Source of the DNA: a virus
Reading direction: 5' to 3' (one strand)
Length of the DNA: 45,074 bases
IMG/VR virus record: IMGVR_UViG_3300045988_027758
In this document: piece by piece, positions 2,756 to 22,415 of the stretch
Numbering within the stretch: position 1 is the stretch's first letter
Layout: each line of letters starts with the position of its first letter
The notes under the pieces: generated by a model
The model's input: only the letters and a program-made list of their open reading frames with translations
The model's database searches: none
What the model was told of the DNA's origin: nothing
Program-made: the position numbers and the translations under genes

Positions 2756-2759
2756 ATGG

Positions 2760-2876: not shown

Positions 2877-2936
2877 AGAGTTCCCAAAGTGGAACGGAAT
2901 ATTGGGTTAGAAATATGAAGAAAGAAGGTGGATGTT

Positions 2937-3236: not shown

Positions 3237-3240
3237 TGCA

Positions 3241-5339: not shown

Positions 5340-5357
5340 GAAAGGTAGGTACATAGT

Positions 5358-5621: not shown

Positions 5622-5650
5622 TTACAGAAAGGTTAAACAGGTGAAAAATT

Positions 5651-6112: not shown

Positions 6113-6154
6113 GTGATACAACTTGTGACCTGACAAGTCAAACAGGCGGGTGGG

Positions 6155-8322: not shown

Positions 8323-8337
8323 AGGCGGTGAGTTGAA

Positions 8338-10224
8338 TTGTTCTTCAGGGGTTTTGTTGAAACCAAAAACAAGAAGTGCATAGAGAAATTCAAAGGAAGA
8401 ACAGACTTCAAGACCTTTGAACAGGTTCAGTCATTGCCGGAATACGCTGGAATTTTGGCAGCGGAAACAATTCTGATTGATGTGGATGATTTTGAAGCGT
8501 CCGAAATACTGTTCAAGGTTGTAAAAGAATATGCGTTGACCTGTCGAGTGTACCGCACAAGCAGGGGCAAGCATTTTCTGTTCAAGAACAGCGGAGTACC
8601 AACCAACAAGACAGGCTGCAAACTGGCAATAGGTTTGACCGCTGATATTAAAATCGGTACAAGAAATTCCTATGAAGTTCTGAAATATGACAATCAGAAC
8701 AGGGAAATTCTTTATGATACCGCTGAAAATGAGGAAGCCCAGCAGCTTCCCCGTTGGTTGTTCCCGGTGAAATCCAAAATGGAGTTTTTGAACATGGAAA
8801 CCGGGGATGGTAGAAATCAAGGGCTTTTCAATTACATTCTTACGCTGCAAAGCAATGATTTCAGCGTGGAAGAAGCACGGGAAACAATCAGGATCATCAA
8901 CAAGTTTGTTCTGAAAGTTCCACTTTCCGATGATGAAATTGAAACCGTCCTTCGGGATGATGCGTTCAAGAAGCCTGTTTTCTTCATGGGTTCGACTTTC
9001 CTTTTTGACAAGTTCGCAACCTTCTTGAAGAACAACAACCATATTATCAAAATTAACAATCAGCTACATATCTACAAGAACGGTATCTATATTTCCGGGC
9101 TGGCAGAGATTGAAGCGGAAATGATACAGCACATTCCGGGGCTGAACAGGGCGAAAAGAACGGAAGTTCTTGCTTACCTTGATATTCTGATCCGTGAGAA
9201 TTCCAAAGCGGAAGATGCAAACCTGATTGCGTTTGAAAATGGGCTTTACAATATCGTGGATGATTCCTTTGTGGAGTTTACCCCGGAACACATTATCACA
9301 AACAAAATCAGGTGGAAATATAACCCGGAAGCCTATTCCGAACTTGCGGACAAGACATTGAACAAGATTGCTTGCAATGATCCGCAAATCAGGGCGTTGC
9401 TTGAAGAAGCAATCGGGTATTGCTTCTATCGCAGGAATGAGCTTGGAAAAGCCTTCATTTTGACGGGTGACAAATCCAACGGTAAAAGTACCTTCCTTTC
9501 AATGGTTCAGTGCCTTTTAGGGGATGAAAATATCAGTTCCCTTGACTTGAAAGAATTGGGCGATAGGTTCAAGACCGCTGAAATGTTCGGAAAGTTGGCG
9601 AATATTGGTGATGATATTGGTGACGAATTCATAGCGAACCCGGCAATTTTCAAAAAGTTGGTTACAGGTGAAAGAGTTTCAGCCGAACGCAAGGGGCAGA
9701 ACCCGTTTGAATTCAATAACTATTCAAAGCTGCTTTTTTCCGCAAACAACATTCCCCGTATCAAAGATAAAACGGGTGCGGTGCAGCGGCGTTTGACAAT
9801 CATTCCGTTTGATGCAAGGTTTTCTGCTGATGATCCTGATTTCAACCCGTATATCAAGCACTTGTTGAAAACTGATGAAGTCATGGAATACCTGATAAAT
9901 TTGGGTATTGCCGGATTGAAGCGGGTTCTTCTAAACCGCAAGTTTACGGGTTCGACTAAAGTTCAAAAAGCAATGGACGAATACGAGGAAAACAACAATC
10001 CTATCATTGGGTTTTTCCGGGAATGTGAAGATGAAGAATTCCAAATCGAGAACGAACCAACCAATGTTGTTTATAAGCGTTATCAGGAATATTGCCTTGC
10101 AAACAGTTTGCAGCCTATGAGCAATATTGAATTTTCAAAGCAGGTCAACCGTATTTTGAATATGCGTGTTGAAAACAAATGGCTGAACGGTAAAAAACAC
10201 CGTATTTTCATTAAAAATGAGTAA
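8338..10224 (+). CDS. Primase-polymerase fused to D5/P4-type SF3 helicase
   Basis: N-terminal ILIDVDD and TSRGKHFLF (prim-pol). C-terminal Walker A GDKSNGKST and Walker B IGDDIGD. TTG start after AAAGGCGGTGAG. Confidence 0.85.
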   Translation: MFFRGFVETKNKKCIEKFKGRTDFKTFEQVQSLPEYAGILAAETILIDVDDFEASEILFKVVKEYALTCRVYRTSRGKHFLFKNSGVPTNKTGCKLAIGLTADIKIGTRNSYEVLKYDNQNREILYDTAENEEAQQLPRWLFPVKSKMEFLNMETGDGRNQGLFNYILTLQSNDFSVEEARETIRIINKFVLKVPLSDDEIETVLRDDAFKKPVFFMGSTFLFDKFATFLKNNNHIIKINNQLHIYKNGIYISGLAEIEAEMIQHIPGLNRAKRTEVLAYLDILIRENSKAEDANLIAFENGLYNIVDDSFVEFTPEHIITNKIRWKYNPEAYSELADKTLNKIACNDPQIRALLEEAIGYCFYRRNELGKAFILTGDKSNGKSTFLSMVQCLLGDENISSLDLKELGDRFKTAEMFGKLANIGDDIGDEFIANPAIFKKLVTGERVSAERKGQNPFEFNNYSKLLFSANNIPRIKDKTGAVQRRLTIIPFDARFSADDPDFNPYIKHLLKTDEVMEYLINLGIAGLKRVLLNRKFTGSTKVQKAMDEYEENNNPIIGFFRECEDEEFQIENEPTNVVYKRYQEYCLANSLQPMSNIEFSKQVNRILNMRVENKWLNGKKHRIFIKNE

Positions 10225-10243
10225 AGGAAGGTGTGCATTTTGA

Positions 10244-10867
10244 ATGAACAGAGAGAGAGAGAGAACAGAAAGTAAAGACTGGATAGGCAATCAAAACAGT
10301 ATTTACACCACCTTGGGGGCTTCCAATCATACCGACAAGGAACGGCAGCAGCATGATTATTATGCAACCGAACCGAAAGCAATGGAACTTCTGCTTGCAG
10401 AAGAACAGTTTTCCCCGGTCATTTGGGAATGTGCTTGCGGTGAAGGGCATTTGTCAAAAGTGCTTGAACAGCACGGATTTGAGGTTATCAGCACGGATTT
10501 AATTTACCGGGGATTCGGTGATCCTGAACCGCTGGACTTCCTGAAAGAATCCCTTGAAGATTTTGAAGGGGATATTATCACAAATCCGCCGTACAAATAC
10601 GCCCTTGAATTTGTCGAACAGGCGTTGAACAGTGTGCAGCCGGGAAGAAAAGTTGCAATGTTCCTGAAACTGCAATTCCTTGAAGGGAAAAGCAGGAAAC
10701 AGTTTTTCTTACATAACCCGCCGAAAGTGGTTTATGTAAGTTCTTCCCGCCTGATATGTGCAATGAACGGGGAATTTTCAAAGTACCCTTCAAGTGCTGT
10801 TGCCTATGCGTGGTTTGTGTGGGAAAAGGGCTTTCAAGGTGATCCAATCATCAAATGGATAAATTGA
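10244..10867 (+). CDS. Orphan SAM-dependent DNA N6-adenine methyltransferase
   Basis: Motif I ECACGEGHL, motif IV NPPY (IITNPPYKY). No restriction partner nearby. Confidence 0.8.
   Translation: MNRERERTESKDWIGNQNSIYTTLGASNHTDKERQQHDYYATEPKAMELLLAEEQFSPVIWECACGEGHLSKVLEQHGFEVISTDLIYRGFGDPEPLDFLKESLEDFEGDIITNPPYKYALEFVEQALNSVQPGRKVAMFLKLQFLEGKSRKQFFLHNPPKVVYVSSSRLICAMNGEFSKYPSSAVAYAWFVWEKGFQGDPIIKWIN
10250..10264 (+). repeat. (AG/GA)7 dinucleotide tract inside codons 3-7 of the methyltransferase
   Basis: Read directly: cAGAGAGAGAGAGAGAa, encoding RERER. Confidence 0.95.
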
Positions 10868-10879
10868 AAGGGGCGCAAG

Positions 10880-11092
10880 ATGAACAAAAATAATCCTTAT
10901 TATAACAATGAAGGGTACGCTGACCCTACTGCATTTTACGGAACAAAGCAGATTGTGAAGGAAGAAGCAGAAACAGAACGGCGGGCAAATGAATTGATAA
11001 AAGTTTTGAAGTTCATTATTCGTTCATGCGGTTTTGAACTAATTGAACGGGTGAAAATCAAGGACACAAAGACTGGAAAGGAGTTCAAATAA
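10880..11092 (+). CDS. Hypothetical protein (70 aa)
   Basis: Intact ORF with an RBS (AAAGGGG). Confidence 0.55.
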   Translation: MNKNNPYYNNEGYADPTAFYGTKQIVKEEAETERRANELIKVLKFIIRSCGFELIERVKIKDTKTGKEFK

Positions 11093-11316
11093 TGGAACAG
11101 ATTCAGAATGCAGTATTGGCAGCGTTTGAAGAATTCAAGAAAGAATTCGGAGAAAATGCGAAACTTGAAGAAGGTGATGAATTTGTCACCGTATTCAATA
11201 ATTGTACGCTGATTATCAGTATTGAAGATGGAACACTTAGAGAACGGTTTATTGGTGGCAAGCCTTACCGGGTTGATATGTCACTTGCAATTTATGAGGG
11301 TGGGGCAAATGAATAA
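11092..11316 (+). CDS. Hypothetical protein (74 aa)
   Basis: TAATG stop/start coupling with the previous ORF. Confidence 0.55.
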   Translation: MEQIQNAVLAAFEEFKKEFGENAKLEEGDEFVTVFNNCTLIISIEDGTLRERFIGGKPYRVDMSLAIYEGGANE

Positions 11317-11869
11317 TTTTACTACGGATGAACGCATTGAACAGTTTTCAAACCTGATGAACCCTTATGTTTCGGAAGAATTCAAGGAATGGTTGATTGA
11401 AAGCGGCTTCTTCACAGCCCCGGCTTCCATTCACCACCACGGGGCTTATTCCGGGGCGTTGTTCGATCATAGCTTTGCAGTAACCAAAGCCCTTCTTTCC
11501 TTTACGGAACGTCTTGAACTGAAATGGCAGCTTGAACGCAGCCCCTACATTGTGGGTATGTTTCACGATCTTTGCAAGGTGGACAACTACACTTGCACGA
11601 AAAAGCCCGCCCTTTCCCCGTTGCTGGAAGGTGACAGTTGGGAATATAACAATGCAACCCTTCTTCCGGGGCATAGTGATAAATCCGTTATGATGTTGCA
11701 GCAGCACATTCAACTTACGGATGAAGAACTTTATTGTATCAGGTGGCACATGGGGGCGTTCGATGATAAAGAGAATTGGAACAGCTACGGGCGGGCGGTA
11801 ACCAACTTCCCGAATGTGCTTTACACCCACACCGCCGATATGGTAGCCGCCCGGATTTTGGGGGTATGA
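11309..11869 (+). CDS. HD-domain phosphohydrolase
   Basis: HHHGAYSGALFDHS ... MFHDLCK ... RWHMG. ATG 11309 after GAGGGTGGGG. Confidence 0.8.
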   Translation: MNNFTTDERIEQFSNLMNPYVSEEFKEWLIESGFFTAPASIHHHGAYSGALFDHSFAVTKALLSFTERLELKWQLERSPYIVGMFHDLCKVDNYTCTKKPALSPLLEGDSWEYNNATLLPGHSDKSVMMLQQHIQLTDEELYCIRWHMGAFDDKENWNSYGRAVTNFPNVLYTHTADMVAARILGV

Positions 11870-12030
11870 GCATGAACAACGATGATAAGGAACAGCTTGA
11901 ATACATAAGAGCATGGGTGCAGCAGAAGAAACAGCGTGAAGCCCATAAGCAGATTGCGAAACGGAAAATCAAATATCATTTCCGAATGGCGTTTCATTGG
12001 CTGATTGAACTTTTCAAGAAAGGACGGTAA
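11866..12030 (+). CDS. Hypothetical small basic protein (54 aa)
   Basis: ATGA overlap with the HD gene stop. In frame with track ORF 11776..12030. Confidence 0.5.
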   Translation: MSMNNDDKEQLEYIRAWVQQKKQREAHKQIAKRKIKYHFRMAFHWLIELFKKGR

Positions 12031-12036
12031 ACAGGT

Positions 12037-12945
12037 ATGAATAAAATCTATAATGGAATTATGGGGCTTGTTGTCGGGGATGCGTTGGGTGTTCCCGTGG
12101 AATTCAAAGAACGGGATTCCTATGAAGTAACTGATATGATGGGCTTTGGAACTTACAATCAGAAGCCCGGTACATGGTCGGACGATAGTTCAATGACCCT
12201 TGCAACCCTTGAAAGTATGGGGCGCATTGGTTCGTTTGATGCCGCCGATATTATGAACAATTTCTATCAGTGGTTGCAGAATGATAAATTTACCCCGTGG
12301 GGCAAGGTGTTTGATGTGGGTGGTGCTACAAGGCGGGCAATCGTGCGATATGCGAACGGAACTGACCCGGTGAAATGCGGCGGTAAAACCCGCATGGACA
12401 ACGGGAACGGTGCGTTGATGCGTATTCTTCCCGTGGCTATGCTTGCGGAAACTGATCCACATGACAAAATGGTGACGGTGAAAAGCATTGCAGGGCTTAC
12501 CCACAACCACCCAATTTCACATATCGCTTGCTTCATTTATGCGTTCATGGTTGAAAATCTGATGAACAATGTTGATAAGCGTTCAGCCCTTTCCAATGCA
12601 ATTCAGGTTGTGGGCGGGGTTTATGGTGAAACTGAAATGTGGCAGGAATTCCGTTTCCTTGCTGAAATTGATAAGTTTGACCGTGACGAAATCAAAAGTT
12701 CCGGCTATGTGGTGGACACGCTGGAAGCTGCTGTTTGGTGTTTCCTGAATTCATGCAGCTATCGGGAATGTGTTTTGCTGGCGGTGAACTTAGGCAGCGA
12801 CACCGACACAGTAGCGGCGGTTGCCGGTGGGCTTGCCGGGATTTATTACGGTTGCGGTGGTGAAAGCGGCATTCCTGATGAATGGATTGCACAGATTCCC
12901 CGGAAAGACTGGATCAAGGAGTTATGTGATAAATTTGAAAGTTAA
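12037..12945 (+). CDS. ADP-ribosylglycohydrolase (ARH/DraG family)
   Basis: GDALGVPVEF, WSDDSSM, GNGALMRILP, GSDTDTVAAVAGGLAGIYYG. Confidence 0.9.
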   Translation: MNKIYNGIMGLVVGDALGVPVEFKERDSYEVTDMMGFGTYNQKPGTWSDDSSMTLATLESMGRIGSFDAADIMNNFYQWLQNDKFTPWGKVFDVGGATRRAIVRYANGTDPVKCGGKTRMDNGNGALMRILPVAMLAETDPHDKMVTVKSIAGLTHNHPISHIACFIYAFMVENLMNNVDKRSALSNAIQVVGGVYGETEMWQEFRFLAEIDKFDRDEIKSSGYVVDTLEAAVWCFLNSCSYRECVLLAVNLGSDTDTVAAVAGGLAGIYYGCGGESGIPDEWIAQIPRKDWIKELCDKFES

Positions 12946-13870: not shown

Positions 13871-14368
13871 ATGGCAAAAGGAAAATATGAACACTGGTTG
13901 ACAGAAGAAGGTTTGCTTCAACTGGAAGCGTGGGCAAGGAACGGCTTGACGGATGAACAGATTGCTTCCAATATGGGAATTGGATATTCCACATTGCAGA
14001 CTTGGAAATCAAAGTATCAAGACATTCAAGACACCCTAAAAAGGGGGAAGGCAGTTGTTGACATTCAGGTTGAAAATGCTTTGTTGAAAAGGGCATTGGG
14101 TTATTCCTATGTTGAAACAACCCGTGAACAGGTCATTGATTATGACAAAACAACGGGCGTTCCAATCGGTTCACACATGGAAGTTACAAAAGAGGTCACA
14201 AAGGAAGTTGTTCCTGATACCACAGCACAAATCTTTTGGTTGAAGAACAGGAAGCCGGAAGATTGGCGTGATAAAAGGGATGTTGCTGTTGAAGGTACTT
14301 TGAATACAAACAACCCGTTTGAAGGTTTGACAACGGAAGAATTAAGAAAGATTATTGACAATGAATGA
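13871..14368 (+). CDS. terS: Terminase small subunit
   Basis: HTH LTDEQIASNMGIGYSTLQTW. KNRKPEDWRDK tail. Overlaps the terL start. Confidence 0.85.
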   Translation: MAKGKYEHWLTEEGLLQLEAWARNGLTDEQIASNMGIGYSTLQTWKSKYQDIQDTLKRGKAVVDIQVENALLKRALGYSYVETTREQVIDYDKTTGVPIGSHMEVTKEVTKEVVPDTTAQIFWLKNRKPEDWRDKRDVAVEGTLNTNNPFEGLTTEELRKIIDNE

Positions 14369-15752
14369 TCTTCAAAAATTCGCCCGCATTGAACTTTCTA
14401 AACGGGATTTTTTTGTATATTGCAACACAAAAGCACCTGACTTTTACAAGAAAGACAGAACCTTCCTTGTTGAGTTTTGCACAGACCTTCAAACCTTCCT
14501 TCAAAGTGATGAACATGAAATCTTGGTTGTGAATATGCCGCCCCGTCATGGCAAATCACGAACCATAGGAAACTTTGTTGAATGGGTGCTTGGTAACGAT
14601 CAAACCCAAAAGATTATGACGGGTTCATATAACGAAATTCTTTCAACCAACTTTTCAAAGGGTGTGCGAAACACCATTCAGGAAGTAAAGGCTGATAAGG
14701 ATAAAATCATATATTCAGACATTTTCCCCGGTGTAAAAATCAAATGGGGCGATGGTGCTATGAATATGTGGTCGTTGGAAAATGGCTATAATAACTATTT
14801 GGCTACTTCTCCAACAGGTACAGCAACAGGTTTTGGCGCAACCCTGATGATTATTGATGATTTAATCAAATCTTCCCTTGAAGCGAACAACGCTGATACC
14901 CTTGAAAAACATTGGTCATGGTTTACTGATACAATGCTTTCAAGATTGGAAGAAGGCGGCAAAATCATAATCGTTATGACCCGGTGGCACAGCTTAGACT
15001 TAGCCGGACGGATCATTGACGAATACGGCGATAAGGTCAAGGTTGTTCAATACAAAGCGGTTCAGGATGATGGTTCAATGCTTTGCCCGGAAATTCTTTC
15101 CCGGAAGTCTTACGAAACCAAAAGAAAAGCTATGGGCGTTGAGATTGCAGAAGCGAACTACCAACAGAACCCGATTGACATTAAGGGCAGACTGTACGGA
15201 AGGTTCAAAACTTACACTGAACTTCCGAAAGACAGTTCCGGGCATTTGCTTTGTTCTGCTGTTAAGAACTACACTGATACAGCAGATACAGGTGACGATT
15301 TTCTTTGTAGTATCAATTATGTTGAGTACAACAAGGAAGCCTATGTTATCAATGTCATTTACACAAAGGACGGTATGGAAATCACCGAACCCGCCGTTGC
15401 AAAAATGCTGTATGACGATAAGGTGAATGTTGCTGATATAGAATCGAATAACGGCGGGCGTGGTTTTGCCCGGAATGTTGGTTCTATTCTTCAAAGCAAG
15501 TATCACAGCAACAGAACGGTTATACACCCGTTCTTCCAGTCAAAAAACAAACAATCCCGCATACTGTCCAACAGTACATGGGTTATGGAACACATATATT
15601 TTCCGCAAAATTGGGCTGACCGCTTCCCTGACTACTACACAGCTATGAGCCGATACCAAAAAGAGGGAAAGAACGCACATGACGATGCCCCCGATGCAAC
15701 AACGGGCATAGCTGAAAAGGTTGGTTGCGGTGAAGCGTTCAGTTTCGACTAA
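14361..15752 (+). CDS. terL: Terminase large subunit
   Basis: Walker A-like MPPRHGKS, Walker B LMIIDD, C-terminal nuclease acidic residues (HDDAPDA). ATG 14361; a TTG at 14355 is also possible. Confidence 0.9.
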   Translation: MNDLQKFARIELSKRDFFVYCNTKAPDFYKKDRTFLVEFCTDLQTFLQSDEHEILVVNMPPRHGKSRTIGNFVEWVLGNDQTQKIMTGSYNEILSTNFSKGVRNTIQEVKADKDKIIYSDIFPGVKIKWGDGAMNMWSLENGYNNYLATSPTGTATGFGATLMIIDDLIKSSLEANNADTLEKHWSWFTDTMLSRLEEGGKIIIVMTRWHSLDLAGRIIDEYGDKVKVVQYKAVQDDGSMLCPEILSRKSYETKRKAMGVEIAEANYQQNPIDIKGRLYGRFKTYTELPKDSSGHLLCSAVKNYTDTADTGDDFLCSINYVEYNKEAYVINVIYTKDGMEITEPAVAKMLYDDKVNVADIESNNGGRGFARNVGSILQSKYHSNRTVIHPFFQSKNKQSRILSNSTWVMEHIYFPQNWADRFPDYYTAMSRYQKEGKNAHDDAPDATTGIAEKVGCGEAFSFD

Positions 15753-15839
15753 AAATAACACATTAGTAACAAAAAGCCTTGAAATCATAGTATTTCGGGG
15801 CTTTTGTCTTTATTATGCGATAGAAAGAAGGTGAAAAGG

Positions 15840-17357
15840 GTGAGCCTGATTGACACATTGGCGGTCAAAGTATCGAACCTGATTTTGCAGGGTGCAGATA
15901 TGAGCGATAAGCAGTTCTTTGAACGGGAAATTCAGAAGTGGAAGAACAGCCCGCAGCGTATCATGCAAATCAAAGGGCATTTGTACTATGACAATGAACA
16001 CGATATTTTGCACCGAAAGCGAATGATGATCGGTGAGGGCGGCAAGCTGGAAGAAGTGGATAACCTACCCAACAACCGCCTGATTGATAATCAGTATGCA
16101 AAGCTGGTGAACCAAAAAGCAAACTACCTTTTAGGTCAACCCTTTGCCATTGAGGGCGAAAATCAGCAGTATGTTGAACTTTTGAAAAAGGTGTTCAACA
16201 AGCGTTTTATGAAAACCCTGAAAGCAGCAGGAAAGGCAATGCTGAACAACGGTATCTGTTGGTTGTACCCTTATTACACCGAAACGGGCGAATTTTCCTT
16301 CCGAATGTTCCCCGGCTATGAAGTGCTTCCTTTTTGGAAGGACACGGAACACACCATTCTTGAAGCGGCTGTCCGCTTGTATTTGGTGGTTGGGTATCAG
16401 GGTACAACGCCCGTGCTGATTGAAAAGGTTGAAATCTACGATTTGAACGGTGTTCACCGCTTCATTTTGGACGGTTCAACCCTTATTCCTGATTTACAGG
16501 GTGTTGATGATAACACTTCCCCATACACCACAACCACGGGTGAGGACGGGAACGCCCTTTCCCTGAATTGGGCGAAAGTTCCCCTGATCCCGCTGAAATA
16601 CAATGAATGCGAAATTCCGCTTTTGAAGAAGGTGAAAACCCTTCAAGACGGTATCAATGTTATGCTGTCCGACTTTGAAAACAATATGCAAGAGGACGCA
16701 CGAAACACCATTCTTGTATTGAAGAACTATGACGGAACGAATTTAGGGGAATTCCGAAAGAACCTTGCAACATACGGTGCGGTAAAGGTTCGCTATGATG
16801 GGGAAACCAAAGGCGGCGTTGAAACCCTTGAAATCAAAGTCAATGCTGAAAACTATAAGGCTATCATTGAAATCTTCAAGAAAGCCATTATTGAGAACGG
16901 CATGGGCTACGATGCAAAGGATGATAGGCTTTCCGGCAACCCCAACCAAATGAATATTCAATCCATGTATTCAGACATTGATTTGGATGCTAATGACATG
17001 GAAACAGAGCTACAAGCAGCTTTTGAAGAAATTCTTTGGTTTGTGAACGCCCACCTTGCCAATACCGGGCAGGGCAACTTTGACGGTGAGGAAGTCAACA
17101 TTATCTTCAACCGGGACATTCTTATCAACGAGAGTGAAGCAATAGATAATTGTCAGAAGTCCGTTGGTATTCTTTCCGATGAAACTATTGTTGGTATGCA
17201 CCCGTGGGTTGATGATCCGCAGCTTGAACTTGACCGCTTGAAGAAGCAGAAAGAGGAACAGCAGGCAGAATTTGAAGCCCAGCAGTTCAACCCGTTTGCA
17301 CCACAGCAGCAGAAGGGCAACGCCCCGCCTGATGAAGGGGGTACGGTGAATGAATAA
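15840..17357 (+). CDS. Portal protein (SPP1 gp6-like)
   Basis: About 505 aa directly after terL. Start uncertain: GTG 15840 after GAAGGTG, TTG 15804, or ATG 15900. Confidence 0.8.
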   Translation: MSLIDTLAVKVSNLILQGADMSDKQFFEREIQKWKNSPQRIMQIKGHLYYDNEHDILHRKRMMIGEGGKLEEVDNLPNNRLIDNQYAKLVNQKANYLLGQPFAIEGENQQYVELLKKVFNKRFMKTLKAAGKAMLNNGICWLYPYYTETGEFSFRMFPGYEVLPFWKDTEHTILEAAVRLYLVVGYQGTTPVLIEKVEIYDLNGVHRFILDGSTLIPDLQGVDDNTSPYTTTTGEDGNALSLNWAKVPLIPLKYNECEIPLLKKVKTLQDGINVMLSDFENNMQEDARNTILVLKNYDGTNLGEFRKNLATYGAVKVRYDGETKGGVETLEIKVNAENYKAIIEIFKKAIIENGMGYDAKDDRLSGNPNQMNIQSMYSDIDLDANDMETELQAAFEEILWFVNAHLANTGQGNFDGEEVNIIFNRDILINESEAIDNCQKSVGILSDETIVGMHPWVDDPQLELDRLKKQKEEQQAEFEAQQFNPFAPQQQKGNAPPDEGGTVNE

Positions 17358-19842
17358 CGCTGAATACTGGAAGTTGCGGTTTGAACAGCTTGAACAGGCG
17401 CAGAACCAAAAGGGCGTGAAAGCCTATGCTGATATTGAACGGCAGTATAAGGAAGCCCAAAAGCAACTTGAAGGGCAGATTGCCCGCTGGTATCAGCGTT
17501 TTGCAACCAACAACGGAATTTCCCTTGCGGAAGCACGGCAGTATTTGAAGGGTGCAGACCTGAAAGAATTTAAGTGGGATGTGCAGGAATATATCAAGTA
17601 CGGACAGGACAACGCCTTAAACAGCGGTTGGATGAAAGAACTTGAAAATGCTTCTGCAAAGTATCACATTTCAAAGCTGGAAGCCCTGAAAGTACAGACA
17701 CAGCACAGCCTTGAAGTCATGTATGCAAAGCAGTTCGGCACTATGCACGGGGCTTTGTCGGATGCCTTTGAAAGCGGGTACTATCACACAGCGTATGAAC
17801 TTCAACACGGGTTCAATGTTGGTTGGGATATTGCCGGACTGGATCAGGCACAGATTGAAAAGGTGCTTGCTAAACCGTGGGCGGCTGATGGGTACAATTT
17901 TTCTGAAAGAATTTGGGGAAACAAGAACAAGCTGATTTCGGAAGTCCACAACGAACTTTCCCGGAATATCATGTTGGGTGCTGACCCGCAAAAGACTATT
18001 GATTCCCTTGCAAAGAAAATGAACACTTCCAAAAACAACGCCGGAAGGCTTGTAATGACGGAAGAAGCCTATTTCAGTTCAGCCGCACAGAAGGATTGCT
18101 TTGAGAGTTTGGGCGTTGAACAGTATGAAATTGTTGCAACGCTGGATTCCCATACTTCCGACATTTGCAGAAGCCTTGACGGGAAGCATTTTCCCATGAA
18201 GGACTATCAGCCGGGAGTGACCGCCCCGCCGTTTCATGTTTATTGCCGTTCAACGACCGTTCCATATTTCGATGAACAGTTTGACATTGGGGAACGGGCG
18301 GCAAGGGATGAAGCAACCGGGAAAACCTACTATATTCCCGATGATATGAATTATCAGGAATGGAAGGAAACCTTTGTTGATGGCGGTGACAAGTCCGGGT
18401 TTGATGTGCTGGACGATGGTTCAGCCCTTCACTACACCCACCATGAAGAACCTGAACCGCCGAAACCAAAGAAGGAATATCTGACAAAGAAAAAGCTGCA
18501 AGCGAAAATTGCTGATGCGGATGTTCAGCTTGAAGATTTGGAAGCCCAATTCAAGGGCGTTTCCGGGGGTTGGACATTCGATGAAGTTTTGAAGGACTTT
18601 GGAAGCCTTGAAGATTTCACGGATGGGGATGATCTTGCAAAGCTGAAAGACCTTCATTCACAGGTAGAAGCCATTGAAACCCAAAAAGCAGAGTGGCAGC
18701 AGAAGTTGAATGAAAAGCTGATTGCAGAGCAGAAGAAAGCCCTTGCGAAACAGCAGGTGGAACTTGAAGCACAGAAAGCCGCTGTTCAGCAACAGCTTGA
18801 TGATTTCGAGGTCAAGACCTATTCCGGCATTTGGTACAACAAGGATGTGACAACCGCTGATTGGGCGGGGCTGAATATCGAGGGTAAGAAGAAGTATTAT
18901 GAAGGGAAGTTTATTACCGAAACTGACCCCGATTTGATGCAGAAGTATCAGGATTTATACAAGCAGTTGGAAGAACTTGATACAGAGGGCAAAGCCTACG
19001 CTGACATTCAGAAAGAGTTGAAACAAATTCAAAGCCAAATCACCAAAGTTCAAACGGATTTGAAAAAACTTGAACAAGGTGGTATAATTGATTCGGTGGA
19101 CGATGCCTTTTCGCAGGAACGCAAGGATGCCGCTATTTGGGCGAAAACAACCAAAGAAGCGGACGATGTTTTGCGTGATACTTGCGGTGAGGTTTGGCGC
19201 ACTTCCTCACCGATTCAGAAAAATGCAATCTATGACTACACCCAAAGTTACCACAAGTTCAACGAACCGTTGCGTGGTATCGAATACGGCAGCGAAAAGT
19301 TCTTAGGTGTTGGAAATGTGGATTTAGACCAAATCGGCGTTTCCTATCAGGGCTGGAAGCCCGGTCAGATGCGGAAAGAAATAAACGCTATGACCGACAT
19401 TATTTCCAAATCGACATACAAGGAAGATTTTTGGTTGCAGCGTGGTTGTAGATTTAAGGGCATGGACAAATTCTTCAATGTTCCTATGGATCGCTTGCAG
19501 AGTGCAACACAGGCAGAGTTGGAACAGTTGCTTTTGAATACAACACCGACTGAATACGGCTTTTGTTCTTGTGGTGTTGCCAAAGGCAAAGGATTCAGCG
19601 GTGATATTATCCTGAATATTTACGCCCCTTCCGGCACACAAATGATGTATGTTGAACCGTTTTCGGCTTTCGGAAATGGCGGGGGTAAGAATTGGGATGG
19701 TATTGCAAAGCAAGGTTCTTTCGGTCAAGAATCGGAAATCATATTGCAGCAGGGAACAAAGTTCCGTGTAACAAAGGTTGAAAAAACACCCGGTATGATT
19801 TACATTGACCTTGAAGTGATTGAACAGACCCCGCAACGATAA
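17350..19842 (+). CDS. Head morphogenesis protein (SPP1 gp7 / Mu F-like) with long coiled coil and C-terminal ADP-ribosyltransferase domain
   Basis: gp7 block LDSHTSDICRSLDGKHF ... PPFHVYCRS. C-terminal R-S-E triad: LQRG (R codon 19441-19443), FCSCG (19561-19575), QESE (19726-19737). Confidence 0.85.
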   Translation: MNNAEYWKLRFEQLEQAQNQKGVKAYADIERQYKEAQKQLEGQIARWYQRFATNNGISLAEARQYLKGADLKEFKWDVQEYIKYGQDNALNSGWMKELENASAKYHISKLEALKVQTQHSLEVMYAKQFGTMHGALSDAFESGYYHTAYELQHGFNVGWDIAGLDQAQIEKVLAKPWAADGYNFSERIWGNKNKLISEVHNELSRNIMLGADPQKTIDSLAKKMNTSKNNAGRLVMTEEAYFSSAAQKDCFESLGVEQYEIVATLDSHTSDICRSLDGKHFPMKDYQPGVTAPPFHVYCRSTTVPYFDEQFDIGERAARDEATGKTYYIPDDMNYQEWKETFVDGGDKSGFDVLDDGSALHYTHHEEPEPPKPKKEYLTKKKLQAKIADADVQLEDLEAQFKGVSGGWTFDEVLKDFGSLEDFTDGDDLAKLKDLHSQVEAIETQKAEWQQKLNEKLIAEQKKALAKQQVELEAQKAAVQQQLDDFEVKTYSGIWYNKDVTTADWAGLNIEGKKKYYEGKFITETDPDLMQKYQDLYKQLEELDTEGKAYADIQKELKQIQSQITKVQTDLKKLEQGGIIDSVDDAFSQERKDAAIWAKTTKEADDVLRDTCGEVWRTSSPIQKNAIYDYTQSYHKFNEPLRGIEYGSEKFLGVGNVDLDQIGVSYQGWKPGQMRKEINAMTDIISKSTYKEDFWLQRGCRFKGMDKFFNVPMDRLQSATQAELEQLLLNTTPTEYGFCSCGVAKGKGFSGDIILNIYAPSGTQMMYVEPFSAFGNGGGKNWDGIAKQGSFGQESEIILQQGTKFRVTKVEKTPGMIYIDLEVIEQTPQR

Positions 19843-19860
19843 CAGAAAGAAGGTGGTTAC

Positions 19861-20166
19861 ATGGAAAAGAAAACATTATCTGAACGCTATGCGGATGAAG
19901 TCCTTACCGACAACACCGCCTTGAACCACTATTCACAGTGTAAGGGATGTGTTTTCCGTGACAAAACCACCGTAAGCGGTGAAGAATGTGGATGGCAAAA
20001 AGCCGTGTGCCACATTTACGGAAGAAGTACCGCTTCCCGGTTGAAATATTCAAGCGGTGAACTGGTATTTCCATACACCCCGGTTGAACCCGGTGATAAA
20101 CCGAATGAGGTTTACAACAACACCGCAAATTGTGAGTATTACGAACAGGAAAAGCGGAAGAAATAA
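19861..20166 (+). CDS. Hypothetical Cys-containing protein (101 aa)
   Basis: CKGC ... CGW ... C pattern suggests a zinc-binding site. RBS GAAGGTGG. Confidence 0.6.
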   Translation: MEKKTLSERYADEVLTDNTALNHYSQCKGCVFRDKTTVSGEECGWQKAVCHIYGRSTASRLKYSSGELVFPYTPVEPGDKPNEVYNNTANCEYYEQEKRKK

Positions 20167-20299: not shown

Positions 20300-20587
20300 A
20301 TGATTGATTTGACAACCGTTGCACAGGCGGCACTTGTCCTTTTTGGTGCGGTGATTACAACCGTAATCGTTCCGTGCGTGAAGAAGAACACCACCGTTCA
20401 GCAGCAGAAGGAAATCATGGGTTGGGTGAAAATCGCTGTTGCGGCAGCAGAACAGCTTTACAAGGGTTCTGACCGTGGCGAGGAAAAGAAAGCCTATGTT
20501 TTGGACTGGCTGAACAAGCAAGGTATCACGATTGATGCCGATAAGCTGGATGCCATGATTGAAGCAGCAGTTCACGAAATCCAGTAA
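20300..20587 (+). CDS. LL-H-type holin-like membrane protein
   Basis: N-terminal TM AALVLFGAVITTVIVPCV, then VAAAEQLYKGSDRGEEKKAYVLDWL ... MIEAAV, typical of the Holin_LLH family. Confidence 0.65.
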   Translation: MIDLTTVAQAALVLFGAVITTVIVPCVKKNTTVQQQKEIMGWVKIAVAAAEQLYKGSDRGEEKKAYVLDWLNKQGITIDADKLDAMIEAAVHEIQ

Positions 20588-20692
20588 CCCCCGCAAATCG
20601 TCTTTTTCGTATTGCAGACGGTAAAGAACAAGGTTCATTGCGTGGTTCGTCACCCACGGTAAACAACGGAAATGAAAGGATGGTACAAAACT

Positions 20693-21283
20693 ATGAAAAA
20701 AGAAGATTTGATTGCAATGGGGCTGACAGAGGAACAGGCAAAGAAGGTTATGGATTCCCTTGACGGGAATTTTGTTACCAAAGCCCGTTTTAATGAGGTC
20801 AACGAGGAAAACAAGACCCTGAAACAGTCTGTTGCTGATAGAGATAAGCAGCTTGAGGATTTGAAGAAGTCCAGCGGTGACAATGCCGAACTGAAAAAGC
20901 AGATTGAAACCTTGCAGCAGCAGAACGCCGATCAGAAGAAAGCCCACGATGCGGAAATGGCACAGTTGAAGCTGGATAACGCCATTGATGCCGCCCTGAC
21001 CGCAGCCGGAGCAAAGAACGCAAAGGCAGTTAAGGCGTTGCTTGACACTTCCAAAGTCAAACTTGGTGAAGATGGCAAGCTGACCGGGTGGGATGAACAG
21101 GTTACCGCCGTTCAGAAGTCGGATTCTTACCTGTTTGAAGCAAAGCAGCAGGGCAAGCAGACCTTCAAGGGATTTCAGCCGGGTGCTTCCGGTGGAGTAA
21201 AGCCGGGAACGAAAGTCGATATGTCCAAAATGACCTATGAGGAACTGGCGAACTATATCGAAAACAACCCTGATGCTGAATAA
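20693..21283 (+). CDS. Scaffolding protein (GP20/DUF4355-like)
   Basis: MKKEDLIAMGLTEEQAKKVMD start and coiled coil, immediately upstream of the capsid gene. ATG 20693 after GAAAGGATGG. Confidence 0.8.
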   Translation: MKKEDLIAMGLTEEQAKKVMDSLDGNFVTKARFNEVNEENKTLKQSVADRDKQLEDLKKSSGDNAELKKQIETLQQQNADQKKAHDAEMAQLKLDNAIDAALTAAGAKNAKAVKALLDTSKVKLGEDGKLTGWDEQVTAVQKSDSYLFEAKQQGKQTFKGFQPGASGGVKPGTKVDMSKMTYEELANYIENNPDAE

Positions 21284-21320: not shown

Positions 21321-22415
21321 ATGGCAAAATTTGATGCGAAAAGTTTTAATGAAAGAGCTTTCGGGAAGTATATGTCTGCTATCCCGAATGTGAAGCTGAA
21401 TAAGCTGAAAGAGAGTAGGGCAATCGTTGCGGATCAGCGTTTGCGTGAAACCTTTGTCAACAACGGTCAGACGGGTACTGTTTACGCCGTTCTTCCCTAT
21501 TTTGGGCTGATTGGCGGCGATGCACAGAACTATGACGGTGTTTCCAACCTTACCCCGGAAAAGACTGATACCTTTGAACAGGGTGTTTTCACTTATGGTC
21601 GAATGATGGGTTGGACGGAAGCGGATTTCTCCTATGATGTGACGGGCGGCGTTGATTTTATGGCGAATGTCCGTAATCAGATTAACCGCTATTGGAATGA
21701 CAGAGATCAGGATACCATTCTTTCTATTCTGAAAGGTATCTTCGCTATGGCTTCCACTGGTACGGGCAATGTAAAGACCGCAAACGCCGCCTTTGTTTCT
21801 GCCCATACTTACGATATTTCCGCACCTTCTACGGATGCGGTCACTACGGACGCTATGAAGGTAAGTGCAACCACGCTGAACAGTGCAATTCAGCAGGCTT
21901 GCGGCGATAACAAGCAGAAGTTCAGCCTTGTTATTTGTCATTCCACTGTTGCAACCAACCTTGAAAACATGAAGCTGATTGCATACCTGAAATACACGGA
22001 TGCAGAAGGCGTTGAGCGTGATCTTGGTATGGCAACTTGGAACGGCAGACTGGTTCTGATTGATGATTCTATGCCTGTTGAGGTCAAGAATGTGGGTTCT
22101 ACGGGCGGTGATGTTTCCCTTTACACCACCTATATTCTTGGTGAAGGTGCAATCGGCTTTGAGCCTGTCGGCGCAAAAGTGCCTTACGAAATGGTTCGTG
22201 ATGCAAAGACCCGTGGCGGTGAAGATACCCTTATTTCCCGTAAGCGTAACGCCGTTTCCGTGGCTGGTATTTCCTACCTGAAAGCAAGTCAGGCAACCAA
22301 CAGCCCGACTAATGCCGAACTGGAAAACGGAAAGAACTGGTCGCTGGTAAGCAACGGCACGGATTGTATTGCACACAAGGCAATTCCGATTGCCCGCATT
22401 ATTTCCCGTGGTTAA
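21321..22415 (+). CDS. Major capsid protein
   Basis: 364 aa, follows the scaffold, strongly biased codon usage. Confidence 0.8.
   Translation: MAKFDAKSFNERAFGKYMSAIPNVKLNKLKESRAIVADQRLRETFVNNGQTGTVYAVLPYFGLIGGDAQNYDGVSNLTPEKTDTFEQGVFTYGRMMGWTEADFSYDVTGGVDFMANVRNQINRYWNDRDQDTILSILKGIFAMASTGTGNVKTANAAFVSAHTYDISAPSTDAVTTDAMKVSATTLNSAIQQACGDNKQKFSLVICHSTVATNLENMKLIAYLKYTDAEGVERDLGMATWNGRLVLIDDSMPVEVKNVGSTGGDVSLYTTYILGEGAIGFEPVGAKVPYEMVRDAKTRGGEDTLISRKRNAVSVAGISYLKASQATNSPTNAELENGKNWSLVSNGTDCIAHKAIPIARIISRG

What the first reader, a model, noticed from the sequence alone, without database searches (positions are those of the whole stretch)
19150..19842. ADP-ribosyltransferase toxin-type domain fused to the virion head-morphogenesis protein
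The 830-aa gp7/MuF-like protein ends in a domain of about 230 aa with the R-S-E triad of C3/VIP2-type ADP-ribosyltransferases. The triad elements are LQRG (Arg codon 19441-19443), FCSCG in the S-T-S position (19561-19575) and QESE, an ExE motif (19726-19737). A coiled coil of about 250 aa separates it from the gp7 core. gp7-type proteins are packaged in capsids, so the enzyme is probably delivered with the DNA, analogous to T4 Alt.
Basis: partly seen in the sequence, partly recalled or inferred. Interest (0 to 1): 0.65.

Follow-up and report, generated by a model that had tools for sequence, protein, structure and literature searches.

The report
Phage head protein carrying ADP-ribosyltransferase toxin
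A gut-Clostridia prophage fuses a C3/VIP2-type ADP-ribosylating toxin domain to its portal-binding minor head protein; this is real, but it is a new member of the already described "MuF polymorphic toxin" class (Bxa, EFV), and it comes with an ADP-ribose-removing enzyme and a small conserved cysteine-rich partner gene.

Summary
ORF 17350..19842 (+) encodes 830 aa with Phage_Mu_F (aa 198-303) and ADPrib_exo_Tox (aa 618-812; 58 bits against a cut-off of 23.4). R698, S740 and E794-x-E796 align with the catalytic Arg, STS serine and ExE/QxE of C3 toxins, Vis and Lmo0066. They are invariant or nearly so in 150 diverse relatives. An AlphaFold model (ART region pLDDT 92-98) matches C3stau2, Lmo0066, C3bot and VIP2 (target TM 0.7-0.84).

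The architecture is not new. It is the ART class of MuF polymorphic toxins (Jamet 2017; Iyer 2022; Bxa, EFV), and delivery "like T4 Alt" is a published, still untested hypothesis.

- A DraG/Tri1/Lmo0067-type ADP-ribosylglycohydrolase at 12037..12945.
- An unannotated 101-aa four-cysteine ORF at 19861..20166.

Both are present in 6 of 6 ART-bearing relatives and absent from 6 of 6 relatives with other C-termini. orf101 divergence tracks the ART domain (r = 0.80), not the MuF core.

Most likely this is an arginine-specific toxin packaged through portal binding, with an eraser and an inhibitor for self-protection. It is a new member of a known kind, of modest interest.

The parts
17350..19842 (+). 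MuF-ART fusion gene, 830 aa: minor head protein (SPP1 gp7/Mu F type) with a C-terminal ADP-ribosyltransferase
   Evidence: ORF; Pfam Phage_Mu_F + ADPrib_exo_Tox; phrog_115 'minor head protein' over the full length and phrog_16625 'Bxa ADP-ribosyl transferase' at 1.7e-34; AF2 mean pLDDT 84.8
17350..18384 (+). MuF/gp7 core (aa 1-345), the presumed portal-binding and capsid-targeting module
   Evidence: 53-54% identical to the ~346-aa short minor head proteins of C. difficile phages CDMH1, phiC2 and phiMMP03, which end here; Pfam domain at aa 198-303; shared at 61-74% identity with relatives that carry other C-termini
18385..19104 (+). Spacer (aa 346-585): disordered hinge 358-371, long helices 380-405, 426-485 and 527-575, and a conserved beta-module 490-501 (YSGIWYNKDVT)
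   Evidence: AF2 secondary structure and pLDDT; heptad signal only in 527-575; W495 and K513 at least 90% conserved across diverse fusions
19105..19839 (+). ADP-ribosyltransferase domain (aa 586-830), C3/VIP2 class, ExE type. Key codons: R642 19273-19275, R698 19441-19443, S740 19567-19569, E794 19729-19731, E796 19735-19737
   Evidence: Pfam; PDB sequence and profile alignments; Foldseek matches to C3stau2, Lmo0066, C3bot and VIP2 with target TM 0.7-0.84; S740, E794 and E796 invariant and R698 at least 90% conserved in 150 representatives; 37% identical to the Bxa-like protein of Bacteroides phage Versailles, with E796 aligned to its E820
19861..20166 (+). orf101: small protein with four conserved Cys (C27-x2-C30 ... 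C50 ... C91), a candidate cognate inhibitor/immunity protein or chaperone of the ART domain
   Evidence: 18-nt gap with an AAGGTGG ribosome-binding site 7 nt upstream of the ATG; homologue immediately downstream in 6 of 6 ART-bearing relatives and in none of 6 relatives with other C-termini; 4 of 4 divergent family members lie 0-15 nt after a Mu_F+ART gene; conserved Cys; divergence tracks the ART domain, Mantel r = 0.80, p = 0.0006; no Pfam, PHROG, NCBIfam or PADLOC match
12037..12945 (+). ADP-ribosylglycohydrolase (302 aa), DraG/Tri1/Lmo0067 type: candidate eraser of the ART's modification
   Evidence: Pfam ADP_ribosyl_GH 2.2e-76; PDB 8za7_A Lmo0067 3.3e-76, Tri1 6dre 2.2e-44, DraG 2woc 1.1e-34, with the GDALG...E, SDDS and DTDT metal-site motifs aligned; phrog_6572; present about 5 kb upstream of the MuF gene in all ART-bearing relatives and absent from the others; present in 10 of 10 contigs with the identical toxin but truncated in L014
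15804..17357 (+). SPP1-type portal protein gene, immediately upstream and overlapping the MuF-ART start by 8 nt; the presumed docking partner
   Evidence: Pfam SPP1_portal 9.6e-89; phrog_64; gp6-gp7 interaction as the capsid-targeting route is taken from PMC6316719

Best explanation
The gene encodes a MuF polymorphic toxin of the ADP-ribosyltransferase class in a temperate myovirus of gut Clostridia.

Shown here:
- An SPP1-gp7/Mu-F minor-head core (aa 1-345) is joined by a ~240-aa, mostly helical spacer to a C3/VIP2-fold ART domain.
- That domain has a complete and conserved NAD-site and catalytic set: R642, R698, S740 and E794-x-E796.
- The C-terminal domain is swapped for unrelated domains in otherwise similar phages.
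- The ART version always travels with a four-Cys small ORF directly downstream and a DraG/Tri1/Lmo0067-type ADP-ribosylglycohydrolase about 4.4 kb upstream.

Inferred:
- The enzyme is an arginine-specific protein mono-ADP-ribosyltransferase. It has an ExE motif like Vis, iota and Bxa, and its partner hydrolase belongs to the arginine-ADP-ribose-reversing DraG/Tri1 branch.
- The MuF core docks on the portal during procapsid assembly, so a few copies are enclosed in each head.
- From the head, the ART domain reaches target cells either with the ejected DNA or on lysis.
- The hydrolase reverses modification. It sits in the early/middle gene block, just before a transcriptional regulator and the packaging genes.
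- orf101 blocks or chaperones the toxin domain, protecting the producing or lysogenic cell.

Targets and biological pay-off (host takeover, influence on the lysis-lysogeny decision, killing of non-lysogens, or an effect on the mammalian host as for Bxa) are unknown.
For: Domains and fold: Pfam, NCBIfam, PHROGs, AF2 model, Foldseek against PDB and BFVD.

Catalytic residues: aligned to C3lim, Lmo0066, Vis and C3stau2. S740, E794 and E796 are invariant and R698 is at least 90% conserved in 150 representatives drawn from 927 clusters. E796 aligns with E820 of the 869-aa Bxa-like protein of phage Versailles; E820A abolishes Bxa toxicity (PMC11699363).

Arginine specificity by analogy: Bxa modifies Arg, and the hydrolase's best relatives are Lmo0067, Tri1 and DraG.

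Polymorphic behaviour: L008-L013 share only aa 1-~350 and carry other C-termini and other small downstream ORFs.

Linkage: hydrolase and orf101 are present in 6 of 6 ART loci and 0 of 6 non-ART loci (Fisher two-sided p = 0.002 by my own arithmetic; the loci are not phylogenetically independent). Also 4 of 4 distant orf101 relatives sit next to Mu_F+ART genes, and orf101 divergence follows the ART domain, not the MuF core.

Dominant architecture: 41 of 68 diverse members of this ART clade carry Phage_Mu_F and 4 carry Phage_min_cap2, with the ART at the extreme C-terminus (median 5-aa tail).

Head-module position between portal and scaffold.

Temperate lifestyle: integrase at 39600..40607, and a relative integrated in the Enterocloster asparagiformis chromosome.

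Packaging logic: PMC6316719, PMC5576092, PMC9503650.
Against: - No enzymology, virion proteomics or target identification exists for this protein; everything past the fold is inference.
- The STS motif is reduced to S-C-G, although it is conserved in that form.
- Delivery by ejection is unproven for any MuF toxin. From my memory of Vinga et al. 2006 (not verified with the tools), no gp7 was detected co-ejected with SPP1 DNA in vitro. Bxa's documented effects are in eukaryotic cells after release and in the producer's cytoplasm.
- The hydrolase is not indispensable: L014 has a 99%-identical toxin and an intact orf101 but keeps only the last 43 codons of the hydrolase.
- orf101 has no detectable homology to any known immunity protein, including the Bsi-like ORF of the Bxa-type locus (hhalign probability 0.4%).
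- The orf101 AF2 model is uninformative (pLDDT 55), and a linked ART-orf101 model could not be run.
- Adjacency alone could explain why orf101 co-varies with the ART domain.
Confidence: 0.8

Rival explanations
1. The toxin is not injected. It is liberated when the lysogen lyses, either free or still in capsids, and acts outside the phage infection cycle on neighbouring bacteria or on mammalian epithelial cells, as reported for Bxa. The MuF fusion then serves mainly for co-expression and stability, or as a release vehicle.
For: Bxa, 37% identical in the ART domain, ADP-ribosylates epithelial cytoskeletal proteins and promotes gut colonisation (abstract of PMC11699363; discussion). The window phage is very common in gut-type metagenomes: the identical protein is indexed in 216 blocks of the collection and on 131 contigs. 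From my memory of Vinga 2006, SPP1 gp7 was not seen to leave with the DNA.
Against: There is no signal peptide or known cell-entry module; the only N-terminal domain is a capsid-interior targeting domain. Most ART-clade members keep the MuF or minor-capsid fusion, which suggests the capsid location matters. How a free 94-kDa protein would enter target cells is unexplained.
Confidence: 0.25
2. The ART acts only inside the producing cell late in infection, for example by modifying host or phage proteins during assembly or shutting down host functions. The portion enclosed in capsids is then incidental.
For: It is expressed from the late head operon. Bxa promiscuously modifies many proteins in the cytoplasm of expressing bacteria. 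The phage itself encodes an eraser and a tightly coupled small ORF, showing that intracellular activity must be managed.
Against: If intracellular action were the purpose, carrying both an eraser and an inhibitor would be counter-productive. Fusion to a capsid-interior protein at a few copies per head is an odd design for a cytoplasmic enzyme. The polymorphic swapping of C-terminal domains, each with its own small ORF, is the signature of delivered toxin-immunity cassettes.
Confidence: 0.12
3. The domain has the ART fold but is an NAD+ glycohydrolase, or modifies nucleic acid, rather than being a protein-arginine transferase.
For: Some ART-fold polymorphic toxins are NADases (Tne5: PMC13285283, listed). 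T4 ModB can attach NAD-capped RNA to proteins (PMC9503650).
Against: All the nearest structural and sequence relatives are protein mono-ARTs. The ExE motif and ARTT-type loop are conserved. The strictly co-occurring DraG/Tri1-type hydrolase only makes sense if a protein-ADP-ribose adduct is produced. Bxa makes Arg-ADP-ribose.
Confidence: 0.05
4. The domain is an inactive relic that serves a structural role in the head.
For: The STS motif is degenerate (S-C-G).
Against: S740, E794 and E796 are invariant, and R698 and many NAD-pocket residues are at least 90% conserved across 150 representatives that are only 23-73% identical. S-C-G is the family's consensus form. The dedicated hydrolase and orf101 are maintained.
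Confidence: 0.03

Closest known systems
Bxa of Bacteroides stercoris prophage, with its immunity proteins BAH and Bsi (Brown 2021 as cited in, and Alexei 2024 = PMC11699363)
   Same: MuF-type N-terminus, long middle region and C-terminal ART of the same clade: phrog_16625 at 1.7e-34; 37% identity to the 869-aa orthologue in phage Versailles, with E-x-E aligned to E818/E820. It sits in the head module after the portal gene, and the same phage encodes an ADP-ribosylglycohydrolase.
   Different: The host phylum differs (Bacillota, not Bacteroidota). The hydrolase is a different branch: Lmo0067/Tri1/DraG-like and only 23% identical to the BAH-like protein. It lies 4.4 kb upstream on the same strand in the early/middle block, not adjacent and divergent. 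The small partner ORF is unrelated to Bsi and carries four conserved Cys.
MuF polymorphic toxin family (Jamet et al. 2017, PMC5576092), including the EFV toxin of E. faecalis V583 and the Apk2 (p)ppApp synthetases
   Same: All of the family's descriptive features are present: a MuF domain, a variable C-terminal toxin, a small ORF downstream, a temperate phage, and enrichment in Firmicutes. The paper reports that 14% of its 191 MuF toxins are ARTs.
   Different: This specific protein, its clade-specific spacer and beta-module, and the orf101 family are not described there. I could not compare with EFV directly because I did not retrieve its sequence.
Lmo0066/Lmo0067 ART-ARH effector-immunity pair of Listeria monocytogenes (PDB 8za7)
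   Same: Both partners have homologues here: ART to chain B (profile E = 1.4e-14, Foldseek target TM 0.84) and hydrolase to chain A (E = 3.3e-76).
   Different: Lmo0066 in the crystal is a 180-aa stand-alone domain, not a phage head fusion. I found no paper in the library that describes its biology.
Tre1-Tri1 (Serratia proteamaculans T6SS ART toxin and its bifunctional immunity protein; PDB 6dre)
   Same: An arginine-directed antibacterial ART is neutralised by a DraG-family hydrolase; Tri1 matches the window hydrolase at 2.2e-44.
   Different: Delivery is by T6SS, not by phage. Tri1's additional direct-binding mode (from my own knowledge) may be taken over here by the separate orf101.
Phage T4 Alt
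   Same: It is an ART-fold, arginine-directed enzyme carried in the phage head and injected with the DNA (PMC9503650).
   Different: tblastn of the ART domain against 50,697 phage records at E <= 1e-3 returned only three records, none of them T4-like. Alt is a free internal head protein, not a portal-bound MuF fusion; from my own knowledge it is loaded by a capsid-targeting sequence and cut by the prohead protease. T4 is virulent and, as far as I know, has no linked eraser.
C3 exoenzymes, VIP2, iota Ia, CDTa (Pfam ADPrib_exo_Tox)
   Same: They share the fold, the upstream NxPLR arginine, the catalytic Arg, the STS serine and the catalytic Glu.
   Different: Identity is only 12-22%. The motif is ExE (as in VIP2 and iota) rather than the QxE of C3. 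The STS motif is reduced to S-C-G. There is no secretion signal or binding component.

Membership tests
MuF polymorphic toxins (Jamet 2017) | N-terminal Phage_Mu_F / SPP1 gp7 domain | tested here: met
   PF04233 at 55.6 bits (cut-off 29.6), aa 198-303; TIGR01641 at 79.1 bits (cut-off 39.65)
MuF polymorphic toxins (Jamet 2017) | C-terminal extension carrying a toxin domain that varies between otherwise related MuF proteins | tested here: met
   L008-L013 share aa 1-~350 at 61-74% identity but have unrelated 200-360-aa C-termini. L005-L007 keep 77% identity in the core but only 30% in the ART domain
MuF polymorphic toxins (Jamet 2017) | Small ORF (<150 aa) immediately downstream as an immunity candidate | tested here: met
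   orf101 lies 18 nt downstream with its own ribosome-binding site and is conserved next to ART-type MuF genes. Its immunity function itself was not tested
MuF polymorphic toxins (Jamet 2017) | Encoded by a temperate phage or prophage, in the head-morphogenesis module | tested here: met
   Gene order terminase - portal - MuF-ART - scaffold - major capsid; tyrosine integrase at 39600..40607; a relative sits inside the Enterocloster asparagiformis DSM 15981 chromosome
MuF polymorphic toxins (Jamet 2017) | Protein present in the virion and delivered to target cells | not testable with these tools
   Needs virion proteomics and infection assays. It is only a hypothesis in the literature too
C3/VIP2-type R-S-E mono-ADP-ribosyltransferases (Pfam ADPrib_exo_Tox) | Profile match above the curated threshold | tested here: met
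   58.2 bits against 23.4 for the whole protein; 60.6 bits for the isolated domain
C3/VIP2-type R-S-E mono-ADP-ribosyltransferases (Pfam ADPrib_exo_Tox) | Catalytic Arg on beta-1, Ser of S-T-S on beta-2, (Q/E)-x-E before beta-5 | tested here: met
   R698, S740 and E794/E796 align to these positions in C3lim, C3bot, C3stau2, Lmo0066 and Vis. They lie on predicted strands 694-700, 739-742 and 796-799. S740, E794 and E796 are invariant and R698 is at least 90% conserved. Only the first Ser of S-T-S is kept (S-C-G)
C3/VIP2-type R-S-E mono-ADP-ribosyltransferases (Pfam ADPrib_exo_Tox) | ART fold | tested here: met
   AF2 pLDDT is 92-98 over aa 590-830. Foldseek probability is 1.00 with target TM 0.71-0.84 to C3stau2, Lmo0066, C3bot and Plx2a; VIP2, CDTa and Ia match via their catalytic domains. 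A coordinate-level superposition of side chains was not available
C3/VIP2-type R-S-E mono-ADP-ribosyltransferases (Pfam ADPrib_exo_Tox) | NAD-dependent ADP-ribosyl transfer to protein | not testable with these tools
   Biochemical assay required
Bxa-BAH-Bsi type module | Bxa-clade ART domain on a MuF-type protein | tested here: met
   phrog_16625 at 1.7e-34; 37% identity, E = 8e-45, to the Versailles orthologue
Bxa-BAH-Bsi type module | Co-encoded ADP-ribosylhydrolase | tested here: met
   PF03747 at 2.2e-76. However, it is a different subfamily (23% identical to the BAH-like protein), in a different position, and is lost in L014
Bxa-BAH-Bsi type module | Bsi-family structural immunity protein | tested here: not met
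   The orf101 family profile against the Bsi-position ORF of phage Versailles gives hhalign probability 0.4%. No other Bsi-like ORF was seen near the toxin
T4 Alt-type injected internal head ARTs | Detectable sequence relationship to Alt and its free internal-protein packaging mode | tested here: not met
   tblastn of the ART domain against the phage collection returned only Bacteroides, Microbacterium and Bacillus phage records. Here the packaging handle is a MuF fusion. The analogy is functional only

The most novel reading that the evidence does not exclude
The 75-101-aa, four-cysteine orf101 family (357 clusters, with no annotation anywhere) is a new, probably zinc-binding, cognate inhibitor specific to MuF-fused ARTs of Bacillota phages. 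Together with an early-module DraG-type hydrolase it forms a three-part writer/blocker/eraser system. The blocker keeps the toxin silent during assembly. Once the phage genome is expressed, the eraser ends a short pulse of arginine ADP-ribosylation started by virion-borne enzyme in the newly infected cell. That would be a self-limiting host-takeover or lysis-lysogeny signal, not a killing toxin.
Probability: 0.3. Interest if true: 0.5.

Novelty: new member of a known kind. Interest (0 to 1): 0.27.

Why it matters
The finding itself confirms a known design. Phages hang polymorphic toxin domains, often ADP-ribosyltransferases, on the portal-binding minor head protein. That design is already covered by Pfam and PHROG annotations, by several comparative papers, and by two experimentally studied examples (Bxa and EFV).

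This example is useful for three practical reasons:
- It is a very abundant, nearly clonal gut-Clostridia myovirus, so it could serve as a tractable model from the phylum where MuF toxins are most common.
- It links the toxin to a hydrolase and a toxin fold that both have counterparts in one solved complex (PDB 8za7), which allows structure-guided experiments.
- It exposes an unannotated four-Cys protein family that is strictly tied to these toxins and is the best candidate for their direct inhibitor.

The central open question for the whole class is whether the toxin is actually injected with the DNA. It remains open, and this phage could be used to test it.

Tried and rejected
Docking of orf101 on the active site therefore could not be examined.
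2. AF2 of orf101 alone with 62 family members gave pLDDT 55. That is too poor for a fold search, so I did not use the third fold search.
3. orf101 was compared with the Bsi-position ORF of the Bxa-type phage Versailles: no relationship.
4. Pfam, PHROGs, NCBIfam and PADLOC scans of orf101 were all empty. PADLOC was also empty for the ART domain, the hydrolase and neighbouring genes, so there is no support for a known anti-phage defence reading.
5. My own narrow MuF HMM, built from close relatives, found only 19 of 150 fusions. It was replaced by the Pfam scan, which found 41 + 4 of 68.
6. Pfam on the alternative C-termini of L008-L012 found nothing above threshold; L012 gave a sub-threshold anthrax-lethal-factor-like hit at 21.7 bits against 27.4.
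7. The literature search for Lmo0066/Lmo0067 found no descriptive paper. The search for direct evidence that SPP1 gp7 is or is not co-ejected found only the review statement.
8. The MuF-ART stop codon and orf101 are in the same frame here and in 6 of 10 loci. With 1 in 3 expected by chance this is not significant, so I rejected read-through.
Full report
**1. Observation**

The window has an 830-codon ORF at 17350..19842 on the + strand.
- R698 of LQRG at 19441-19443
- FCSCG at 19561-19575
- QESE at 19726-19737
- base 19150 = codon 601

The protein scores above curated thresholds for both claimed domains:
- Phage_Mu_F: aa 198-303, 55.6 bits against 29.6
- TIGR01641 phageSPP1_gp7: 79 bits against 39.65
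- ADPrib_exo_Tox: aa 618-812, 58.2 bits against 23.4

**2. Is it really an ART with a working active site?**

Sequence alignments:
- A single-sequence search of the last 260 aa against PDB finds C3lim (3bw8, E = 4.6e-5), Lmo0066 (8za7_B) and Vis (4xzj).
- R698 aligns with the C3 'RG' arginine, S740 with the first serine of S-T-S, and E794-S-E796 with the ExE of Vis.
- A profile built from 79 diverse relatives strengthens this: Lmo0066 at 1.4e-14 and C3stau2 at 1.4e-8.
- The profile also aligns an upstream NePLR arginine (R642) with the C3 'N-x-P-L-R' motif.

Conservation:
- A search of 1.84 billion representative proteins finds 927 clusters at E <= 1e-3, of which 269 are at E <= 1e-30.
- Among the best 150 (23-73% identical to the window protein), S740, G762, E794 and E796 are invariant. 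R698, G699, F738 and many others are at least 90% conserved.
- The family form of 'S-T-S' is S-C-G.

Structure:
- An AlphaFold2 model of the full protein has mean pLDDT 84.8, and 92-98 over the ART region.
- The triad residues sit on strands 694-700, 739-742 and 796-799.
- Foldseek's top PDB hits are all C3/VIP2-class toxins: C3stau2, Lmo0066 (target TM 0.84), C3bot1, C3lim, VIP2, Plx2a, Certhrax, CDTa and iota Ia, all at probability 1.00.

I could not superpose side-chain coordinates. The residue equivalences rest on sequence and profile alignments plus strand positions.

**3. The rest of the protein**

- aa 1-345 are 53-54% identical to the ~346-aa short minor head proteins of C. difficile phages CDMH1, phiC2 and phiMMP03, which stop at that point.
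- A low-confidence hinge follows at aa 358-371.
- Then comes a helical spacer: helices 380-405, 426-485 and 527-575, interrupted by a small beta-module at 490-501. The sequence of that module (YSGIW..VT) is conserved across the whole fusion family.
- Only helix 527-575 shows heptad periodicity. Helix 426-485 is an E/K/Q/A-rich helix without it.

So 'a 250-aa coiled coil' is an approximation of a ~240-aa, mostly helical spacer.

**4. Surroundings**

The window is a temperate myovirus:
- small and large terminase (13871..15752)
- SPP1-type portal (15804..17357)
- MuF-ART
- scaffold (20672..21283)
- major capsid protein (21321..22415)
- sheath, tube and tape-measure genes
- holin and amidase (38065..39415)
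- integrase (39600..40607, - strand)

Relatives are prophages of gut Clostridia, including one in the Enterocloster asparagiformis DSM 15981 chromosome, others in Lachnospiraceae and Oscillospiraceae MAGs, and one in Otoolea muris. The identical protein is on 131 contigs and is indexed in 216 blocks of the assembly collection.

**5.

*The hydrolase (12037..12945).* It encodes a 302-aa ADP-ribosylglycohydrolase (PF03747, 2.2e-76). Its best solved relatives are:
- Lmo0067 (8za7_A, 3.3e-76)
- Tri1, the immunity protein of the T6SS ART toxin Tre1 (6dre, 2.2e-44)
- DraG (2woc, 1.1e-34)

The metal-site motifs are aligned in these matches. PDB 8za7 is titled 'ART-ARH type toxin effector-immunity protein pair'. 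Its chain B is one of the closest structural matches of the window ART (highest target TM-score, 0.84), so both partners of a solved toxin-immunity complex have homologues in this phage.

*orf101 (19861..20166).* It starts 18 nt after the toxin's stop codon and has an AAGGTGG ribosome-binding site.
- It has no match in Pfam, PHROGs, NCBIfam or PADLOC.
- It belongs to a family of 357 unannotated clusters.
- C27, C30 and C91 are invariant and C50 is at least 90% conserved, in a CxxC...C...C pattern.

**6. Co-variation**

- Six of twelve related loci from reference genomes (L002-L007) keep the ART C-terminus. All six have the hydrolase about 5 kb upstream and an orf101 homologue directly downstream.
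- The other six (L008-L013) share only aa 1-~350 at 61-74% identity. They carry other C-termini, each followed by a different small ORF, and have neither the hydrolase nor orf101.
- A 6/6 against 0/6 split gives Fisher p = 0.002 by my own arithmetic. The loci are related phages, so this overstates independence.
- L010 and L012 have only 5.7 and 4.9 kb of upstream sequence, and L013 is cut inside the MuF gene, so absence is less secure there.
- L005-L007 are informative: their MuF core is 77% identical to the window's but their ART domain only 30%, and they still carry a hydrolase (57%) and an orf101 homologue (38-42%).
- Four further, divergent orf101 relatives (35-39% identical) each lie 0-15 nt after a Phage_Mu_F + ADPrib_exo_Tox gene.
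- Across 10 toxin/ORF pairs, orf101 identity correlates with ART-domain identity (Mantel r = 0.80, p = 0.0006) but not with MuF-core identity (r = 0.16, p = 0.12).

ART plus orf101 is therefore a cassette that recombines independently of the head-protein core. This is the pattern of polymorphic toxin-immunity modules, although adjacency alone would also produce it.

**7. The hydrolase is not obligatory**

All 10 sampled contigs with the identical toxin keep the hydrolase. L014 has a 99%-identical toxin and a 100%-identical orf101, but window 10984-12805 is replaced there, leaving only the last 43 codons of the hydrolase. If that genome is functional, orf101 is the constant partner and the hydrolase an accessory one.

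**8. Comparison with what is known**

This architecture is established:
- Jamet et al. 2017 defined 'MuF toxins' as polymorphic toxins of temperate phages. They reported 14% of their 191 MuF toxins as ARTs, a small ORF downstream in 89%, and the hypothesis of co-injection with DNA by analogy with the T4 ARTs.
- Iyer et al. 2022 state that many Alt/VIP2-family ARTs are fused to MuF and are probably head-packaged.
- The SPP1 genome review gives the mechanism: gp6 portal binding targets gp7 to the procapsid interior, a route 'likely exploited' by gp7-toxin fusions.
- Bxa of a B. stercoris prophage is a MuF-ART that modifies arginine and is lethal in E. coli through its C-terminal domain. It is neutralised by an ADP-ribosylhydrolase (BAH) and a small binding protein (Bsi).
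- Public phage records already carry the name 'ADP-ribosyltransferase domain and MuF-like fusion protein'.
- phrog_115, 'minor head protein', matches the window protein end to end.
- Within this ART clade the phage minor-capsid fusion is the majority architecture: 41 of 68 members have Phage_Mu_F and 4 have Phage_min_cap2, and several of the rest are fragments.

The window protein's ART domain is 37% identical to the Bxa-like protein of Bacteroides phage Versailles. E796 aligns to that protein's E820, the number of the residue whose mutation inactivates the equally long Bxa.

Differences from the Bxa module:
- The hydrolase belongs to another branch and is only 23% identical to the BAH-like protein.
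- It lies in the early/middle block, just before a transcriptional regulator and the terminase genes, not beside the toxin.
- orf101 is unrelated to Bsi.

**9. Mechanism**

Shown: the domain composition, the fold, a conserved catalytic set, cassette behaviour, and linkage to a hydrolase and to orf101.

Inferred:
- arginine specificity, from the ExE motif, Bxa's chemistry, and the DraG/Tri1-type eraser
- capsid enclosure through portal binding
- protective roles for the hydrolase (reversal) and orf101 (direct block, possibly zinc-dependent)
- delivery to the next cell

Delivery is the weakest link. No MuF toxin has been shown to be injected. From my memory of Vinga et al. 2006, which I could not check with the tools, SPP1 gp7 was not detectably co-ejected in vitro. 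The effects reported for Bxa occur after release from cells or inside the producer. I therefore keep 'released at lysis' and 'acts in the producer' as live rivals.

**10. Verdict**

This is a real feature, correctly read by the first stage. It is a new member of a well-described kind and not a novelty. The modest added value is the writer/eraser/small-partner organisation in a Bacillota phage and the unannotated four-Cys family as a candidate new immunity protein.

Scores: interest 0.27. The most novel reading still allowed is orf101 as a new inhibitor family together with an eraser-limited pulse of ADP-ribosylation. I give that reading about 0.3 probability and an interest of 0.5 if true.

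Noticed in passing
window 20300..20587 (+): A 95-aa Holin_LLH-type gene (PF09682, 6.6e-15; phrog_6918) sits inside the head module between orf101 and the scaffold gene. A canonical holin (38065..38496, phrog_199) already lies next to the amidase endolysin (38474..39415). The extra gene is present in all near-identical contigs but gave no tblastn hit in any of the relatives L002-L013, so it looks like a moron-type insertion. Its role is unknown.
   Followed up: partly
L014 4689..5469 compared with window 10873..12805: A 99%-identical phage in NCBI assembly GCA_009741695.1 has window 10984-12805 replaced. The replaced stretch covers the HD-phosphohydrolase-like ORF 11222..11869 and all but the last 43 codons of the ADP-ribosylglycohydrolase. 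The toxin and orf101 are intact. This is a natural 'eraser-less' variant.
   Followed up: partly
window 11222..11869 (+): The 215-aa ORF directly upstream of the hydrolase matches phrog_28876, 'metal-dependent phosphohydrolase' (3.9e-28), and phrog_5889, with no Pfam hit at E <= 0.01. It is lost together with the hydrolase in L014. It could belong to the same ADP-ribose/NAD-handling unit.
   Followed up: no
window 18811..18852 (aa 488-501) and flanking helices: A short beta-module (KTYSGIWYNKDVT) is embedded in the helical spacer. W495 and K513 are at least 90% conserved across MuF-ART fusions that are only 25-72% identical overall. It may be a 'pre-toxin' element of unknown function, possibly a processing or docking site.
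   Followed up: no
window 19840..19863 and homologous junctions in L002-L028: orf101 is in the same reading frame as the toxin gene, separated by one TAA stop codon and 15 further in-frame nucleotides. The same-frame arrangement holds in 6 of 10 loci. That is not significantly more than the 1 in 3 expected, so stop-codon read-through is not supported.
   Followed up: yes
L019 6748..8403 compared with window 13871..15752: One contig with the identical toxin carries a different terminase pair (Terminase_2 with Terminase_3/3C) in place of the window's HTH-type small subunit and T7-like large subunit. The rest of the head module is unchanged. This is clean modular exchange of the packaging genes.
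   Followed up: no
window 438..10867 (+): The early region encodes an SNF2-type helicase, an SLT transglycosylase, a PD-(D/E)XK nuclease fused to AAA_24, a D5-type primase-helicase and a DNA methyltransferase-like protein. An SLT lytic transglycosylase in the replication block, away from the tail and lysis genes, is unusual.
   Followed up: no
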